Part shown: positions 14,064 to 17,700 of the stretch, piece by piece
Layout of the letters: each line of letters starts with the position of its first letter
How positions within the stretch are numbered: position 1 is the stretch's first letter
From: Candidatus Curtissbacteria bacterium RIFCSPLOWO2_02_41_11
Lineage (GTDB): Bacteria > Patescibacteriota > Microgenomatia > Curtissbacterales > GWA2-41-24
Direction of reading: 5' to 3'
NCBI GenBank assembly: GCA_001775055.1
Contig: MFBU01000015.1
Span: 4,487 to 68,486, forward strand
DNA length: 64,000 nucleotides
Made by a program: the position numbers and the translations under genes
Notes under the pieces: model-generated
What the model saw: the letters and a program-made list of their open reading frames with translations, nothing else
Databases searched by the model: none
What the model was told of the DNA's origin: nothing

Positions 14064-14528
14064 TTATAAGGTGAATGATAAAGAATTTTCGGTCTTTAGT
14101 AATTCTAATATTCTGGCAGCAGTCCTACCATCAAGAATCAAGGGAGGCCTTTTTTGAGTCTTAAGGGGCAACTTGGCTGCCGATTGTTTAGAAAGATTGT
14201 AGAGCCTAAACAAAGGGTCTTGAAGATCAGTTTCCTTATGAATATCAACCTCACGGGAAATAATCCGTCTTTGGTGATTGGGAATTCGGATCGTTAAACT
14301 AAGTTTACTTTTCTGAAAACCAGTAGAGGTTGGCCGAGGTAGTTCTAATCCCAAATAGTTAAATTCTCCGCCTATTGCCGGCTGACTCTGAGAGTCGTGT
14401 TTAAGAAAAGACCATTGTATTAGTCCTTGTTCGGTCAGCTCGATTAAACGCTGACAAATTTGATCTTCATAAGGTCGCAGTTGTTCCCCCTCTTCTGCGT
14501 GAGAACTTCCTTTAGCTTCTGTCATCAA
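14064..14528 (-). CDS. hypothetical protein (154 aa), divergent from the 885-aa gene
   Basis: It is a long ORF in a GC-richer island. No motif was recognised. Confidence 0.45.
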   Translation of the reverse strand: MMTEAKGSSHAEEGEQLRPYEDQICQRLIELTEQGLIQWSFLKHDSQSQPAIGGEFNYLGLELPRPTSTGFQKSKLSLTIRIPNHQRRIISREVDIHKETDLQDPLFRLYNLSKQSAAKLPLKTQKRPPLILDGRTAARILELLKTENSLSFTL

Positions 14529-14838
14529 TGGCTAATTATCGTTATGGGGTTAGAACTTGTCAAATCTAAAATTTAGCGGTATTGGCACTTCAATAAACTC
14601 AGTGTAAACTCAAGAACGTGGGCCGCCTTTGGCGAGCCTCGCTTTTTTAACGTATTTGACGTAAAAAGCGGGGATTCCTAAGTCATCTACCCTATTTAGG
14701 TTCAAAGCAACAAACACTTCCGAAGAATAGATTTACCATTCTTGGGTCACAAAGGCAGGTTAAGAATAGTTGATATTCCAAAAAATCGCAACTGGCTTTA
14801 CTTGACAATGCTAGCGTGAAAATCTTAATATTTGCAGC

Positions 14839-17496
14839 ATGGTTCAAGGCGAAAGGGAAGTTGGCCCACATCTAAATAATGAACCTGCCCCAATAAGAGA
14901 TGCGTTTGAAAATTCGTCGTTGGTAAAAACAGTTACGCTCCTGGAGACTACAAAAATCCCGCAACCCAGCTTCCAATCACTTAATGTGATACTTCCCCTT
15001 GCATATGAAAGGCAGCGAATTAACTACGCTTTTAGAGAAGTTGCTGCTCTTGAACTCGTAATGCGAGATCCTGAATTTCGTTTACTTTGGCAAGATTTGG
15101 TGGAAGAACCCAAAAAACCAGGGAGAAAATTCAGAGACAATGGGCTAACGGAAGAAGCAATGGCTGTTTACGCTGAGTTTTTGGCAAGTGACGCGCCAGT
15201 AATAGGAAGAATTACAGCCGCAGCTCCTATTTTTAGAGATTATATGCGCAAAACGACAGAATACGAAAACCTTGGACCTTTTTTTAGGAGGGTCCTTAAG
15301 GAATTAAGGAAAGGCGAACCTGAAGTTGCAGCTTTTTTAATAGCATCAGAACATCATTTAGAGGTTTTTCACCAGTTAGATTACACCCATGGATGGGTCC
15401 AAGATAGGTTGAGGATGAGTGGTGGCGAATCCTGGGCATACTTTCAGTCAAGAATAGAGGAAGACCCTGAAAAGAAGGATCAACTTATTAGACTTGCCGT
15501 CGGTGACTTAGATCACAAAGAATCGCTGGTAAAATCTTCCTCCAGATTTAGGGAATTCACTACTAAAGTACTGGACATTTATTTTGATACCAGTGATACG
15601 TCGAGTTGGCGTAAATTTATTCGATATTACTTCCCCACTGTCATGGCTGGCTTTGGATATTTTGACCCTGAAGATTATGATCCAGAAAAACAGTACGAAA
15701 GGTTGCAGGAATTGTTTAATGCGGTCGGAGAAGAAGATTGGGATTTCCTAGCAGGTTATTTTATATGGAGTGGATGGGCAAGAAGCGGAAAAGCTGTAGG
15801 GGTTTTAGATCCACAAGTTCTTAAGGGTCATTTAGATAGTGCCAAAGCATTTGTTGAATTTAACAACGTCATAGAATTTCAAGATCCAGAAAACTTATCT
15901 TATGGAGACGAAAGCAAGGCAATAAATTTTTGGCTTGATCAATTTGCAGACGGAAATCTAACTGGTGATGATCTTAAGAATATAGCTAATTTGTGGATTG
16001 CCAGAAGAAAGGCTCTTTTTTCGCATAGAGAGCCATATAGAGCTGAACTGGGGGTTGCAGCGGTGCCGTTTTTAACTGATCTAGATACCTACAAAGATGG
16101 CGAACTTGTTGCCCAGTTGACTCAAGCAGGTGTTAATCCTGAGCCGGATATTAGACGAAGGATAAAAGATACCAAAGCAGACCTGGGTCCCGTTGCATCT
16201 TTCGGTCGAGCCATTTCTGATCTGGTAAAAGGAGATTTTCATTCTGGCATGTTGCCAGTCGTTTCTGCATGGGTAAGAAGGTACGTAGATGGAGATATAA
16301 GCCCGGAGGATTTAGCAAAATTGGTATCGAACATCAGAAAAATCAAAGCAGCGGAAAATCGGGTCACTAAAAACAAGGAGATTTCCGATGAGGAGAAAAA
16401 ATATTTCAAACTATTTACGAGAAGCTTATACGTCACGGAAGGCCTTGGAGAGATTGATGATTTGGAGGGGTTAATAAATCCTGACGGAATAATAGACTTA
16501 ATAAACCAAAATATTTTTCCAACACCAATAATTTTGGAATATGTGTCAACTAATGGTGCTGGTTCAGTAAATCAACTATTAGAAGTTCTAAGAGAGGCAG
16601 AAGCAGGCAACTTCAATCCGAACAATGAGCTTCACAGAGAACTCCAATTTGCCAGATATTTAATGATGTTCGGCTCAGAAGATATTGCTGTCCAATATGA
16701 TAGATTCAGAAAATTACCTTTTATTGAAGAACCCAAGCCACCGCAGACGTTAAGTGAGGAGGACTTAAGGGAAACCGAATGCACGGCACTTGAGGCAGCG
16801 CGAGTTTATTGGTTAGTAAAAGAGAGAGTTGATGTTGGAAGAAATGTTTTAGTCATTGCCAATGAGAGATATGGAAAACTTTTTGTCACTGACCCCTTGG
16901 CCGAAGAATTAACTTCTTTAGGAGTTAGAGTCGATACAACTTATGTTAAATCTGGTGCCGCTAAAGATGGAACTGTCGAAAAGATTTTTGACGAGGAAAC
17001 AGAACAATACATAAAACAAGAATTACCTGATGTTTTTGTAGTAGATGGTACAGCAACACCGTTCGCTAGCGGAAAGCAGGGTCCGAGGTTCTCCCGCGCG
17101 ATGATTGCTTTTAATAAGTGGTTCAGCGAAAGCAATATGGGCTATCGTGTTGCTTTTTGGTCGTTTGTGGAGAGCTCTAAAGCTCAGCTCGGAGACGTAA
17201 ATGTTCCTTTTAGAAGACCGGATTATGATGGACCGCAAGCCATTATTGTAAATTCTACGGTTAGCCCAAAACATGCTAAGCAACTATCGAAGAAGCTTAA
17301 AGACCATGCTCCCGGCTATTTTGATGACTATGAAGGTAATTTAGGAAGAGGCCAAAATAACATTGTTCTTTCAAAAACAGGATTAACACAACTTCCAAGA
17401 ATGAGCGAAAAGCGGTATCTTAGTGCTGTTCAAAGGAAAATCAAGGAAGCAGTACCAAGCATGATAATGTCCCCTGAGTCTGATCCATATCTATAA
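14839..17496 (+). CDS. large hypothetical protein (885 aa), no recognisable domain; ~42% GC vs ~33% in flanks
   Basis: It is a continuous 2.6-kb ORF on the minority strand, acidic and soluble-looking. The C-terminal segment VFVVDGTATPFASG resembles a PRTase-type nucleotide loop only weakly. Confidence 0.55.
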   Translation: MVQGEREVGPHLNNEPAPIRDAFENSSLVKTVTLLETTKIPQPSFQSLNVILPLAYERQRINYAFREVAALELVMRDPEFRLLWQDLVEEPKKPGRKFRDNGLTEEAMAVYAEFLASDAPVIGRITAAAPIFRDYMRKTTEYENLGPFFRRVLKELRKGEPEVAAFLIASEHHLEVFHQLDYTHGWVQDRLRMSGGESWAYFQSRIEEDPEKKDQLIRLAVGDLDHKESLVKSSSRFREFTTKVLDIYFDTSDTSSWRKFIRYYFPTVMAGFGYFDPEDYDPEKQYERLQELFNAVGEEDWDFLAGYFIWSGWARSGKAVGVLDPQVLKGHLDSAKAFVEFNNVIEFQDPENLSYGDESKAINFWLDQFADGNLTGDDLKNIANLWIARRKALFSHREPYRAELGVAAVPFLTDLDTYKDGELVAQLTQAGVNPEPDIRRRIKDTKADLGPVASFGRAISDLVKGDFHSGMLPVVSAWVRRYVDGDISPEDLAKLVSNIRKIKAAENRVTKNKEISDEEKKYFKLFTRSLYVTEGLGEIDDLEGLINPDGIIDLINQNIFPTPIILEYVSTNGAGSVNQLLEVLREAEAGNFNPNNELHRELQFARYLMMFGSEDIAVQYDRFRKLPFIEEPKPPQTLSEEDLRETECTALEAARVYWLVKERVDVGRNVLVIANERYGKLFVTDPLAEELTSLGVRVDTTYVKSGAAKDGTVEKIFDEETEQYIKQELPDVFVVDGTATPFASGKQGPRFSRAMIAFNKWFSESNMGYRVAFWSFVESSKAQLGDVNVPFRRPDYDGPQAIIVNSTVSPKHAKQLSKKLKDHAPGYFDDYEGNLGRGQNNIVLSKTGLTQLPRMSEKRYLSAVQRKIKEAVPSMIMSPESDPYL

Positions 17497-17691
17497 GAGA
17501 AATATCGAGATCAGTAATAATCGTCATATGTGTCGCACAATTAATGTAGAGCGAGGTTGATACTTTAGCCTCAAATTAGTCCTTCGACTTCGCCGAGTCA
17601 GACTCGGCTTCGCTCAGGATCGAAGACCTCAACTCCCCACTATAATTACTCCGTAATCTCACCATACGTTATAATTCCAAAGCATACGTCG

Positions 17692-17700
17692 TGCTATAAT
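17692..17700 (+). promoter_or_regulatory. extended -10 (TGCTATAAT) 9 nt upstream of the hicB ATG; leaderless transcript likely
   Basis: The sequence is GTGCTATAATACCTTTGAAATG. Confidence 0.4.

What the first reader, a model, noticed from the sequence alone, without database searches (positions are those of the whole stretch)
14064..17700. GC-richer island with an 885-aa domain-less protein and divergent 154-aa partner
The region is about 42% GC against ~33% locally. It holds a large acidic soluble protein with no recognisable catalytic motif on the minority strand. The divergent promoter region carries the GC-rich 20-mer also found in ileS. A downstream GC-rich hairpin (17581..17630, GCCGAGTC-a-GACTCGGC with CTGAGCGAAGC-type flanks) resembles repeats seen at the second orphan island (57118.., 60985..).
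Basis: partly seen in the sequence, partly recalled or inferred. Interest (0 to 1): 0.6.

Follow-up and report, generated by a model that had tools for sequence, protein, structure and literature searches.

The report
Orphan PRTase-like protein in variable slot
The 885-aa gene is a real, selected but dispensable accessory gene of an undescribed protein family from ultra-small bacteria and archaea. Its conserved tail probably binds phosphoribosyl compounds or nucleotides. It is not a GC-rich island.

Summary
The two ORFs, the acidic Pfam-less 885-aa protein, the shared GC-rich 21-mer and the downstream hairpin are all real. The GC island is not: the region is 40.7% GC against 39.1% for the window and about 39.5% in both flanks.

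The window is from a Curtissbacteria (CPR) genome. The stretch between the glyoxalase gene and ftsZ is a hypervariable slot. Two sibling genomes keep both flanking genes but carry a GmrSD-type nuclease or a DUF433/DUF5615 pair there instead. Neither has an 885-aa homologue at this locus.

The gene is under purifying selection (dN/dS 0.10). In the source aquifer a TGG(Trp199)→TAG nonsense allele is also common.

An exhaustive HMMER search found about 180 clusters of relatives. They share residues 545–875 of the 885-aa protein. The labelled members are CPR, DPANN and Omnitrophota. N-termini vary (TPR, HEAT, none).

AlphaFold models this domain confidently (pLDDT 92). It has no significant structural match. 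The recurring weak matches are HGPRT-type phosphoribosyltransferases.

The 154-aa "partner" is not conserved next to the family.

Best reading: a stand-alone accessory protein with a helical sensor region and a PRTase-like nucleotide-handling domain, probably a conflict or defence gene. The function is inferred, not shown.

The parts
13992..18217 (.). Hypervariable slot between the glyoxalase-family gene (13608-13991, -) and ftsZ (18218-19312, -). Here it holds the 154-aa ORF, the 885-aa gene and a HicB-like/HicA pair.
   Evidence: Sibling L018 (FtsZ 88% identical) holds GmrSD_N, a PEP-utilizer-domain protein, a GNAT and a 126-aa ORF in this slot. Sibling L017 (FtsZ 80%) holds DUF433 + DUF5615 and a 178-aa ORF.
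14064..14528 (-). 154-aa basic ORF (pI 8.7). Gene callers start it at the ATG at 14525, giving 153 aa. There is a faint HTH_32 hit at residues 123-148.
   Evidence: The only homologue found is a 150-aa ORF in L018 at 20102-20554 (31% identity), with no 885-aa relative at that locus.
14529..14838 (.). Divergent intergenic region.
14535..14563 (-). Promoter-like site TTGACA-17-GATAAT (11 of 12) just upstream of the 154-aa ORF.
   Evidence: This is a consensus match only.
14622..14642 (+). GC-rich 21-mer shared with ileS (5822-5842, one mismatch). It contains the small palindrome GGCGAG-c-CTCGC followed by a T-run.
   Evidence: In ileS it lies in a variable loop that codes ..RRARLANGG...
14644..14838 (+). 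Constrained non-coding region upstream of the 885-aa gene. It carries AAGAATAG at 14723 and 14762 and the inverted ATTCTT at 14738.
   Evidence: It is 81.5% identical to the upstream region of the 77%-identical orthologue (L107). Third codon positions of the gene are only 58.8% identical. There is no Rfam hit.
14802..14831 (+). Promoter-like site TTGACA-18-TAATAT ending 8 nt before the ATG. It is conserved in L107.
14839..17496 (+). 885-aa gene of an uncharacterised family. It is present in public records as KKS04023.1, OGD89746.1, OGE06425.1 and UniRef100_A0A1F5HQZ5, all 'hypothetical protein', Candidatus Curtissbacteria.
   Evidence: dN/dS is 0.10 against the L107 orthologue in all three thirds of the gene.
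14839..16455 (+). N-terminal region of about 540 aa, predicted all-alpha. It is shared by only about 30 of the representatives. Other members have TPR, HEAT or nothing here.
   Evidence: (low-confidence model, helices only).
15433..15435 (+). Trp199 codon. It is TGG in the window and TAG in many contigs from the same aquifer. The TAG allele splits the gene into 198-aa and 617-aa calls, the latter restarting at Met269 (15643).
   Evidence: W199 is invariant in the three close homologues.
16456..17493 (+). Conserved C-terminal module (residues 540-885): a five-helix bundle, a long helix and an alpha/beta core. This is the part that defines the family.
   Evidence: 180 representatives; conserved columns; AlphaFold pLDDT 92.2, pTM 0.85.
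16852..16875 (+). The loop V-I-A-N-E-R-Y-G after the first core strand (family consensus VxGNxRYG). N675 is conserved in 98%, Y678 in 90% and G679 in 100% of members. It looks like a candidate phosphate-binding loop.
17038..17052 (+). V-V-D-G-T at the end of the third core strand. D736 is invariant. hhalign aligns it with the acidic pair of the HPRT PRPP motif.
17580..17619 (.). GC-rich hairpin element 84 nt after the stop codon, with no T-run. On the - strand its frame is TCCTGAG...CGAAGGA.
   Evidence: It is absent downstream of the L107 orthologue. An assembly breakpoint in L103 falls at 17616.
17710..17994 (+). 94-aa HicB-like antitoxin candidate. It has weak UPF0150/PHD_like hits only. 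It overlaps hicA by 8 nt.
17987..18217 (+). HicA toxin, 76 aa.
   Evidence: Pfam PF07927, E = 6.8e-11, 42.5 bits against a cutoff of 27.

Best explanation
The 885-aa gene is a stand-alone accessory gene. It sits in a hypervariable slot next to ftsZ in a Curtissbacteria (CPR) genome.

**Architecture.** The protein has two parts. The first is an all-helical N-terminal region of about 540 aa. Relatives replace this region with TPR or HEAT repeats, or lack it. The second is a C-terminal module of about 330 aa that defines an undescribed family.

**Inferred function.** I infer that the alpha/beta core of this module is a divergent phosphoribosyltransferase-like (type I PRT-like) domain. It would bind a phosphoribosyl compound or nucleotide at three sites: the GNxRYG loop after strand 1, Ser705 after strand 2, and the invariant Asp736 (VVDGT) after strand 3. 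The helical N-terminus would act as a protein-binding or regulatory arm.

**Inferred role.** Given where the gene sits and how freely it is lost, the most likely role is in genetic conflict. It could be a defence or toxin-like effector that alters PRPP or nucleotide pools when triggered. This would be analogous to, but not homologous with, the known PRTase defence effectors.

**Shown versus inferred.**
- Shown: the gene is real and selected, it is accessory and polymorphic for a null allele, the family and its conserved domain exist, and the domain folds confidently.
- Inferred: the PRTase-like fold (weak evidence), ligand binding, and the conflict role.
For: **A real, selected gene**
- dN/dS is 0.10 across the whole length.
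- The upstream region is also constrained.

**Accessory and dispensable**
- Siblings with conserved ftsZ and glyoxalase flanks carry a GmrSD-type nuclease or a DUF433/DUF5615 pair in the slot. They have no homologue there.
- A TAG allele at the invariant Trp199 appears in 20 contigs read. The intact allele is indexed in 41 blocks. In 9 of 10 TAG contigs this is the only SNP in 3.6 kb.

**Family**
- There are 180 representatives at E<=1e-3 among 1.84 billion proteins. Their core matches residues about 550-765, extending to about 875 in roughly half.
- Polar residues conserved in 88-100% of members: E652, N675, Y678, S705, D736 (100%), R750, Y769, D829. R677, W774 (about 80%) and D830 (77%) are less conserved.

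**Fold**
- AlphaFold gives pLDDT 92.2 and pTM 0.85.
- About 20 of the top 50 PDB Foldseek hits are HGPRTs. The best has probability 0.92 and E = 0.014. TM normalised to the target reaches 0.45.
- The top hit in the viral library is a 'phosphoribosyl transferase domain protein' at E = 5.8e-3.
- hhalign of the 126-sequence profile against a 10-sequence HPRT profile gives P = 0.037. The alignment is colinear: strand 1 and its loop, strand 2 and its Ser, strand 3 and its Asp. The score beats 20 of 20 column-shuffled controls, but narrowly.

**Fusion and context**
- In a 3593-aa Omnitrophota protein the domain is followed by HAD-IIB and SLOG/LOG domains, which in other proteins act on sugar phosphates and nucleotides.
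- HicAB lies next door in the window.
- HicA, CopG, Replic_Relax and a serine recombinase lie near P0028. Replic_Relax and an XRE-type HTH lie near P0004. MazE plus an in-frame MazF fusion occur in P0003.
- PRTase effectors do act in defence: ShosT (PMC11961720) and Retron-Eco11 (PMC12746101), both found.
Against: - The profile-profile signal is marginal. The real score is 20.2, the best shuffle 19.1 and the reversed control 17.6.
- The canonical PRPP motif is absent. That motif has two acidic residues and then [ST]G.T. The family has one Asp followed by G-T.
- No member hits Pfam Pribosyltran.
- No PADLOC or PHROG model matches.
- No partner gene is conserved across the family.
- Some members sit in ordinary chromosomal contexts, for example after def-fmt.
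- Toxin-antitoxin genes are so common in CPR genomes that adjacency to them is weak evidence (my own knowledge).
- No relative was found in the viral contigs, phages or plasmids searched.
Confidence: 0.4

Rival explanations
1. It is a lifestyle enzyme rather than a conflict gene. On this reading it is a divergent PRTase-like nucleotide-salvage or nucleotide-sensing protein. Ultra-small symbionts (CPR, DPANN, Omnitrophota) depend on scavenged nucleotides and would use it for that.
For: - All taxonomic labels recovered for the family are CPR, DPANN or Omnitrophota.
- The fold and motif hints, and the fusion to HAD and LOG/SLOG domains, are the same as for the best explanation.
- Some members sit among housekeeping genes: def-fmt and PFOR/acyl-CoA synthetase genes.
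- The gene is under strong purifying selection.
Against: - The distribution is very patchy. There are only 180 clusters in 1.84 billion proteins, and most are singletons.
- It is absent from the two closest sibling genomes at this locus.
- A null allele is common in the natural population.
- The N-termini (TPR, HEAT, unrelated helices) are not what a simple salvage enzyme needs.
Confidence: 0.2
2. It is a non-catalytic scaffold or regulator. The alpha/beta domain would be an inactive Rossmann-like ligand sensor, as PyrR and PurR are for PRTases. The helical region would bind partner proteins. There would be no enzymatic effector role.
For: - The canonical PRPP motif is lost.
- The window protein departs from the family consensus at several positions, for example E603 to Q and G674 to A.
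- About 60% of the protein is alpha-helical repeat-like sequence.
- There is a small, faintly HTH-like gene and a constrained upstream region with repeated AAGAAT motifs.
Against: A set of nearly invariant polar residues (E652, N675, S705, D736, R750, D829), which I place by inspection at the ends of the predicted strands, is more typical of an active site than of a scaffold.
Confidence: 0.15
3. It is cargo or a maintenance function of an integrated plasmid-like element, for example a replication, partition or addiction accessory. The ftsZ-adjacent slot would be an insertion hot spot.
For: - Replic_Relax genes, an XRE-type HTH shared between two loci (41% identical), a serine recombinase and a PIF1 helicase lie near distant members.
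- Toxin-antitoxin modules flank the gene here and in the P0003 and P0028 loci.
Against: - The window slot has no integrase, relaxase or replication gene.
- The slot boundaries have no flanking direct repeats or tRNA.
- The composition is native.
- No hit was found in 72,556 plasmids or 50,697 phages, although these collections contain few CPR or DPANN elements (my own knowledge).
Confidence: 0.1
4. On it, the segment is a recently acquired, compositionally foreign GC-rich island. It carries a two-gene module (885 aa plus its 154-aa partner) marked by island-specific GC-rich repeats.
For: - The slot content differs between siblings.
- The 21-mer and the hairpin are real and non-random.
Against: - GC and GC3 are the same as in the neighbours.
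- The 154-aa homologue in L018 has no 885-aa relative at its locus. Other family members have unrelated neighbours.
- One of the two 21-mer copies is inside the core gene ileS.
- Similar GC-rich palindromes come and go in other intergenic regions.
Confidence: 0.05

Closest known systems
Type I phosphoribosyltransferases, HGPRT/HPRT branch (Pfam PF00156 Pribosyltran)
   Same: - The predicted alpha/beta core runs in the same order: helix, strand 1, glycine-containing loop, helix, strand 2 ending in Ser, then a hydrophobic strand 3 ending in an invariant acidic residue, then a helix and further strands.
- HGPRTs are the recurring weak Foldseek hits.
- A viral PRT-domain protein is the top BFVD hit.
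- The hhalign alignment to HPRT is colinear at P = 0.037.
   Different: - No sequence-level membership.
- The motif is VVDGT, not the [DE]D followed by [ST]G.T of HPRT.
- The loop is GNxRYG rather than HPRT's L-K/R-G.
- An extra N-terminal five-helix bundle and a C-terminal FDDP segment are present.
- TM-scores stay below 0.5 and no E-value falls below 1e-2.
- Activity is unknown.
PRTase-type defence effectors: ShosT of ShosTA, and the PRTase-like effector of type III-A3 retrons (Retron-Eco11)
   Same: - A PRTase-like module is used outside core metabolism.
- The genomic setting includes toxin-antitoxin and defence genes.
- ShosT is reported to disturb purine metabolism (PMC11961720).
- The Retron-Eco11 effector is reported as phosphoribosyltransferase-like (PMC12746101).
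   Different: - No PADLOC model of any defence protein matches this protein or five relatives.
- No ShosA-like partner, reverse transcriptase or ncRNA is seen nearby.
- The architecture differs: a large helical N-terminus and no recognisable pyrophosphatase domain.
- The resemblance is functional analogy only and is untested.
Repeat-plus-effector proteins of conflict systems (TPR or HEAT sensor arm fused to an enzymatic head)
   Same: Across the family, variable alpha-solenoid N-termini (TPR in P0028, HEAT in P0131, an unrelated helical region here) are joined to one constant C-terminal module.
   Different: - No NTPase switch domain is present.
- No effector of a known class is present.
- Short forms of 370-450 aa, including one from a Woesearchaeota archaeon, lack the arm altogether.

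Membership tests
Type I PRTase (Pfam PF00156 Pribosyltran) | Sequence match to the family HMM at or above the gathering score. | tested here: not met
   There was no PF00156 hit at E<=1 for the window protein. There was none at E<=0.01 for the ten relatives. There was none at E<=1 in any of the 41 members of alignment A2.
Type I PRTase (Pfam PF00156 Pribosyltran) | PRPP-binding motif: four hydrophobic residues, two acidic residues, then a loop with [ST]-G-x-T. | tested here: not met
   The family has hydrophobic residues, then V-D-G-T, with a single invariant Asp736. No TGxT-type loop follows.
Type I PRTase (Pfam PF00156 Pribosyltran) | The PRT fold: a parallel beta-sheet core with ligand loops after strands 1, 2 and 3. 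| tested here: inconclusive
   - The model is confident (pLDDT 92).
- HGPRTs dominate the weak PDB hits. The best E is 0.014, probability 0.92, and TM normalised to the target is 0.33-0.45.
- A PRT-domain protein tops the BFVD hits at E = 5.8e-3.
- Nothing reaches E<=1e-3.
Type I PRTase (Pfam PF00156 Pribosyltran) | Profile-profile homology to HPRT. | tested here: inconclusive
   hhalign gives P = 0.037 and a score of 20.2 over 78 colinear columns. Column-shuffled controls score 9.7-19.1 (n = 20). The reversed control scores 17.6. Comparisons with single sequences were not significant.
Type I PRTase (Pfam PF00156 Pribosyltran) | PRPP-dependent transfer or nucleotide-binding activity. | not testable with these tools
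   This needs biochemistry.
Known anti-phage defence proteins (PADLOC-DB 2.0, which should include the ShosT and retron PRTase effector models) | Match to a defence-protein HMM, and presence of the system's partner genes. | tested here: not met
   There were 0 families at E<=1 for the window protein, the 154-aa ORF and four relatives. No reverse transcriptase or other recognised partner lies in the slot. I did not check that the ShosT and retron effector models are in this release.
Genomic island / variable region | Conserved syntenic flanks with different content in related genomes. | tested here: met
   ftsZ and the glyoxalase gene flank unrelated gene sets in L018 (with the MFS transporter gene beyond the glyoxalase gene) and in L017.
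Genomic island / variable region | Atypical base composition. | tested here: not met
   The region is 40.7% GC against 39.1% for the window. Of same-size windows, 16% are as GC-rich. GC3 is within the neighbours' range.
Genomic island / variable region | Integration hallmarks: an integrase, a tRNA target and flanking direct repeats. | tested here: not met
   No integrase ORF lies in the slot. The only tRNA in the window is at 323-396. No direct repeat brackets 13992-18217.
HAD superfamily (considered because of hhhVDGT and FDDP) | Motif I, DxD, on the first core strand, followed by the squiggle and flap, and a match to HAD HMMs. | tested here: not met
   - There is a single Asp.
- The motif sits on the third predicted strand, after a beta-alpha-beta unit.
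- No HAD Pfam hit falls in the family domain.
- No HAD protein is among the top 50 PDB hits.
- One weak BFVD hit is to a 'HAD-like protein' with an rmsd of 17 Å.
HicAB toxin-antitoxin (the neighbouring genes, not the 885-aa gene) | A HicA toxin HMM match with an adjacent small antitoxin gene. | tested here: met
   HicA PF07927 scores E = 6.8e-11, above its cutoff. The upstream, overlapping 94-aa ORF has only weak antitoxin-family hits.

The most novel reading that the evidence does not exclude
The C-terminal module may be a new enzyme family related only distantly, if at all, to PRTases. By the few taxonomic labels available it is confined to ultra-small, host-dependent prokaryotes of both domains (CPR bacteria, DPANN archaea, Omnitrophota) and is presumably exchanged between them. 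Coupled to interchangeable alpha-solenoid sensor arms, it would remodel PRPP or nucleotide pools. It would do so either as a new kind of abortive-infection effector or as a factor acting on the host cell these symbionts attach to.
Probability: 0.25. Interest if true: 0.65.

Novelty: new variant of a known kind. Interest (0 to 1): 0.45.

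Why it matters
CPR and DPANN genomes are full of proteins of unknown function, and almost nothing is known about their defence or host-interaction toolkits.

This family has several features that make it a concrete target for study:
- Its boundaries are clear and its domain model is confident.
- It has a short list of candidate catalytic residues.
- A natural null allele segregates in a well-sampled aquifer.
- It sits in a definable variable slot next to ftsZ.

If the PRTase-like reading holds, it would add a new branch to the enzymes that manipulate PRPP and nucleotides in genetic conflict. 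If it does not hold, the domain is a new fold variant worth solving.

Tried and rejected
**Family and sequence searches**
- Pfam, NCBIfam, PADLOC and PHROGs gave nothing for the 885-aa and 154-aa proteins and for 26 relatives, apart from TPR, HEAT, HAD and SLOG hits in N- or C-terminal extensions.
- PDB sequence searches with profiles A1 and A2 gave only noise.
- The word-indexed protein search found only 3 close homologues with the single sequence and 6 proteins with profile A2. The exhaustive HMMER search was needed.

**Structure**
- A full-length AlphaFold run with 3 sequences was useless (pLDDT 39).

**Locus and collection scans**
- The search for related loci could not use alignments A2 or A3 because they have no conserved 7-mer.
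- With A1 it found nothing in GTDB genomes, so the source species itself appears to be absent from that collection.
- In JGI metagenomes it found only the same species.
- It found nothing in IMG/VR.
- tblastn against phages and plasmids found nothing.

**A poorly spent search**
- My third protein search (E. coli Hpt) returned only near-identical enterobacterial sequences.
- I therefore built the diverse HPRT profile from plasmid-collection records.

**Ideas rejected**
- Riboswitch or known RNA in the conserved upstream region: no Rfam hit even at E<=10. Two sequences are too few to test covariation.
- Suppression of the TAG allele: no suppressor tRNA in the window.
- A real rearrangement at the hairpin in contig L103: the continuation is a much more GC-rich SSB/S6/CysS block, so I judged it a chimeric assembly.
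- Walker-A reading of G-N-E-R-Y-G-K: position 680 is not conserved across the family, and G674 is Ala in this protein.

Full report

The ORFs are as described. An 885-aa ORF lies at 14839..17496 (+). A divergent 154-aa ORF lies at 14064..14528 (-). A 310-nt spacer separates them. The large protein is acidic (pI 5.15), has no hydrophobic segment, and has no Pfam or NCBIfam match.

The headline claim of a GC-rich island is wrong. The region is 40.7% GC. The window as a whole is 39.1%. The flanks are 39.5% and 39.4%. Of equally long windows, 16% are at least as GC-rich. GC3 of the gene (0.327) is within the range of its neighbours (0.25-0.43).

The "20-mer" is a 21-mer, GCCGCC[T/G]TTGGCGAGCCTCGC. 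It occurs at 14622-14642 and, with one mismatch, at 5822-5842 inside ileS. In ileS it codes part of a variable loop.

The hairpin GCCGAGTC-a-GACTCGGC at 17592-17608 is real and unique in the window. It is only moderately more stable than shuffles (z = -1.8). Its outer frame, TCCTGAG...CGAAGGA, recurs at 60985-61011.

**2. Where the window comes from, and what the surroundings are**

The exact 885-aa protein is in public data as KKS04023.1, OGD89746.1 and OGE06425.1. All are annotated as 'hypothetical protein' of Candidatus Curtissbacteria. The contigs that carry it are groundwater assemblies.

Searching GTDB genomes with the adjacent FtsZ gave two close siblings.
- L018 is Curtissbacteria RIFOXYA1_FULL_41_14, with FtsZ 88% identical.
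- L017 has FtsZ 80% identical.

Both keep ftsZ and the glyoxalase-family gene in the same order, and L018 also has the MFS transporter gene beyond it. What lies between ftsZ and the glyoxalase gene differs.
- In the window: HicA, a HicB-like gene, the 885-aa gene and the 154-aa gene.
- In L018: a GmrSD_N nuclease, a PEP-utiliser-domain protein, a GNAT and a 126-aa ORF.
- In L017: a DUF433/DUF5615 pair and a 178-aa ORF.

So 13992-18217 is a hypervariable slot populated by toxin-antitoxin and restriction-type genes. It has none of the classical integration hallmarks.

**3. The gene is functional but dispensable**

Against its 77%-identical orthologue (P0001, locus L107), dN/dS is 0.10, and it is equally low in all three thirds of the gene. 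The 190 nt upstream of the start codon are 81.5% identical between the two loci. Third codon positions are only 58.8% identical. The promoter and upstream region are therefore constrained too. This region contains repeated AAGAAT motifs and has no Rfam match.

Ten contigs from the same aquifer differ from the window in 14064-17700. In nine of them the only difference is at position 15434, which turns the invariant Trp199 codon TGG into TAG. That change splits the gene into 198-aa and 617-aa calls. Both alleles are abundant. The intact protein is indexed in 41 blocks. The 617-aa fragment appears in 20 contigs read. The window holds no suppressor tRNA. A recent null or hypomorphic allele at appreciable frequency means the gene is not essential.

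**4. The family**

The word-indexed search found only two close homologues plus the truncated allele. An exhaustive HMMER search of 1.84 billion representatives found 180 proteins at E<=1e-3, and 52 at E<=1e-30.

Almost all of them share residues about 550-765 of the query, and about half extend to about 875. Only about 30 also share the N-terminal region.

Lengths of the 150 listed proteins fall into these groups:
- 46 of 301-500 aa, including stand-alone forms of about 370-450 aa;
- 43 of 751-1000 aa;
- 16 of 1001-1400 aa;
- one of 3593 aa.

Extensions outside the shared domain include:
- TPR in P0028;
- HEAT repeats in P0131;
- in the 3593-aa Omnitrophota protein, HAD-IIB and SLOG/LOG domains downstream of the family domain.

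The only taxonomic labels available are Curtissbacteria/Microgenomates (CPR), Woesearchaeota (DPANN) and Omnitrophota. Most clusters are singletons from raw-read assemblies.

Conserved columns in 126 sequences give these motifs:
- G590-x-F;
- L602-E603 (Q in this protein);
- A650-x-E652-A;
- V-x-G-N675-x-R-Y-G679;
- P686;
- S705;
- P730...V-D736-G-T;
- R750;
- Y769...W774;
- F-D829-D-P.

**5. Structure**

With 41 sequences, AlphaFold models residues 540-885 at pLDDT 92.2 and pTM 0.85. The model is a five-helix bundle, a long helix, and an alpha/beta core whose strands carry the conserved motifs at their ends.

Foldseek finds nothing at E<=1e-3 in the PDB or in BFVD. The weak hits are not random, though.
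- About 20 of the top 50 PDB hits are hypoxanthine-guanine phosphoribosyltransferases. The best has probability 0.92 and E = 0.014. TM normalised to the target reaches 0.45.
- The top BFVD hit is a 'phosphoribosyl transferase domain protein'.

I built a 10-sequence HPRT profile. hhalign against the 126-sequence family profile gave P = 0.037 over 78 colinear columns. The alignment pairs:
- strand 1 with the GNxRYG loop against strand 1 and the diphosphate-binding loop of HPRT;
- the strand ending in S705 against the strand that precedes HPRT's flexible Ser-Tyr loop;
- VVD736GT against the V-E-D of the PRPP motif.

The score of 20.2 exceeded all 20 column-shuffled controls (maximum 19.1) and the reversed control (17.6), but only narrowly.

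I therefore regard "PRTase-like" as the best available reading of the fold, not as an established fact. Membership in Pfam Pribosyltran is tested and not met, and the canonical PRPP motif is absent.

**6. The 154-aa "partner" and other neighbours**

The 154-aa ORF has no family match beyond a faint HTH_32 hit. Its one detectable homologue lies in L018 about 9 kb past ftsZ, with no 885-aa relative at that locus.

Genes adjacent to distant family members are heterogeneous.
- P0004: an XRE-type HTH and Replic_Relax.
- P0028: HicA, CopG, an XRE-type HTH, Replic_Relax and a serine recombinase.
- P0005: a PIF1 helicase.
- P0153: a 144-aa HTH protein.
- P0020: def-fmt.
- P0058: Fic, LAGLIDADG and GIY-YIG genes.
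- P0003: MazE plus a MazF fused in frame to a family protein that lacks its first 150 or so residues.

No partner is conserved, so the protein most likely acts alone. Mobile-element and toxin-antitoxin genes recur nearby. That is suggestive but weak, because such genes are common in these genomes.

**7. Mechanism I commit to (confidence 0.4)**

The gene encodes an accessory, stand-alone protein. Its constant C-terminal module binds and probably converts a phosphoribosyl compound or nucleotide at a site formed by N675/R677/Y678, S705, D736, R750, Y769/W774 and D829/D830. Its variable alpha-helical N-terminus provides recognition or regulation. It probably serves in genetic conflict, in a way analogous to the PRTase effectors ShosT (PMC11961720) and Retron-Eco11 (PMC12746101). 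It is not homologous to them by any test I could run.

- Shown: selection, dispensability, the variable slot, the family, and a confident domain model.
- Inferred: fold class, ligand, catalysis and biological role.

The rivals are:
- a symbiont-specific salvage or sensing enzyme (0.2);
- a non-catalytic scaffold or regulator (0.15);
- a mobile-element maintenance function (0.1);

**8. Novelty and score**

The family is undescribed in every curated library queried, and every public copy is annotated as hypothetical. It has a confident predicted structure with no significant match. By the labels available it is confined to CPR, DPANN and Omnitrophota.

I class it as a new variant of a known kind, a divergent PRTase-like module. 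There is a real chance that it is more distant than that.

Interest is 0.45. It is a well-defined, testable orphan family with a natural knockout allele, but it has no demonstrated function. The compositional argument that motivated the finding does not hold.

Noticed in passing
window 15434 (codon 15433-15435): There is a natural G/A polymorphism here: TGG (Trp199, invariant in homologues) against TAG. In 9 of the 10 TAG contigs examined it is the only difference in 3.6 kb. Both alleles are common in assemblies from the same aquifer.
   Followed up: yes
window 14644-14838; L107 1-211: The non-coding DNA upstream of the 885-aa gene is 81.5% identical to that of the 77%-identical orthologue. 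Third codon positions are 58.8% identical. It carries AAGAATAG at 14723 and 14762 and the inverted ATTCTT at 14738. There is no Rfam match. It could be an operator or a leader.
   Followed up: partly
L107 about 60-80; window 17580-17619: Small GC-rich palindromes differ between the orthologous loci. L107 has CCTGCCTGCCGGCAGGCAGG inserted upstream of the gene. The window has the TCCTGAG...CGAAGGA hairpin downstream, which L107 lacks. They behave like small insertions.
   Followed up: partly
window 5822-5842 (inside ileS, 3623-6541, -): The GC-rich 21-mer shared with the intergenic region lies in a variable loop of IleRS (..SRVPRRARLANGGKGQ..), just before the conserved WTTTPWTLP motif. It may be an in-frame insertion of a GC-rich mini-element.
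   Followed up: partly
L103 5778/5779 = window 17616: Contig ERZ4903125 k141_1010238 matches the window exactly up to the hairpin. It then continues into a much more GC-rich SSB, ribosomal protein S6 and CysS block. This is probably a chimeric assembly joined at the hairpin.
   Followed up: partly
L106 444-2941 (P0003, Microgenomates GCA_007375835.1): MazE is followed by a MazF that is fused in frame to a family protein lacking its first 150 or so residues. This is either a real toxin fusion or a gene disrupted by insertion of a toxin-antitoxin module.
   Followed up: partly
L018 11094-15528; L017 5393-6644: The same ftsZ-glyoxalase slot in sibling genomes holds different genes. L018 has a GmrSD_N nuclease, a PEP-utiliser-domain protein, a GNAT and a 126-aa ORF. 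L017 has a DUF433/DUF5615 pair and a 178-aa ORF. The slot is a hot spot for accessory and defence-type genes next to the division cluster.
   Followed up: yes
window 13509-13581 and 43076-43148: A 73-nt direct repeat (74% identical) contains a hairpin (..TGAACTGGCCTAGCCAGATTCA..). One copy lies between the 62-aa ORF at 13282-13470 and the glyoxalase gene.
   Followed up: no
window 7818-7866, 8456-8500, 31725-31774: Three copies of a 39-49-nt palindromic motif (ATCACA..TTCTGATATGTCAGAA..TGTGAT) look like a shared operator.
   Followed up: no
   Followed up: no
window 14802-14831 and 14563-14535: Both divergent genes have good sigma-70-like hexamers ending 6-8 nt before their start codons. This would make both mRNAs leaderless or nearly so.
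   Followed up: no
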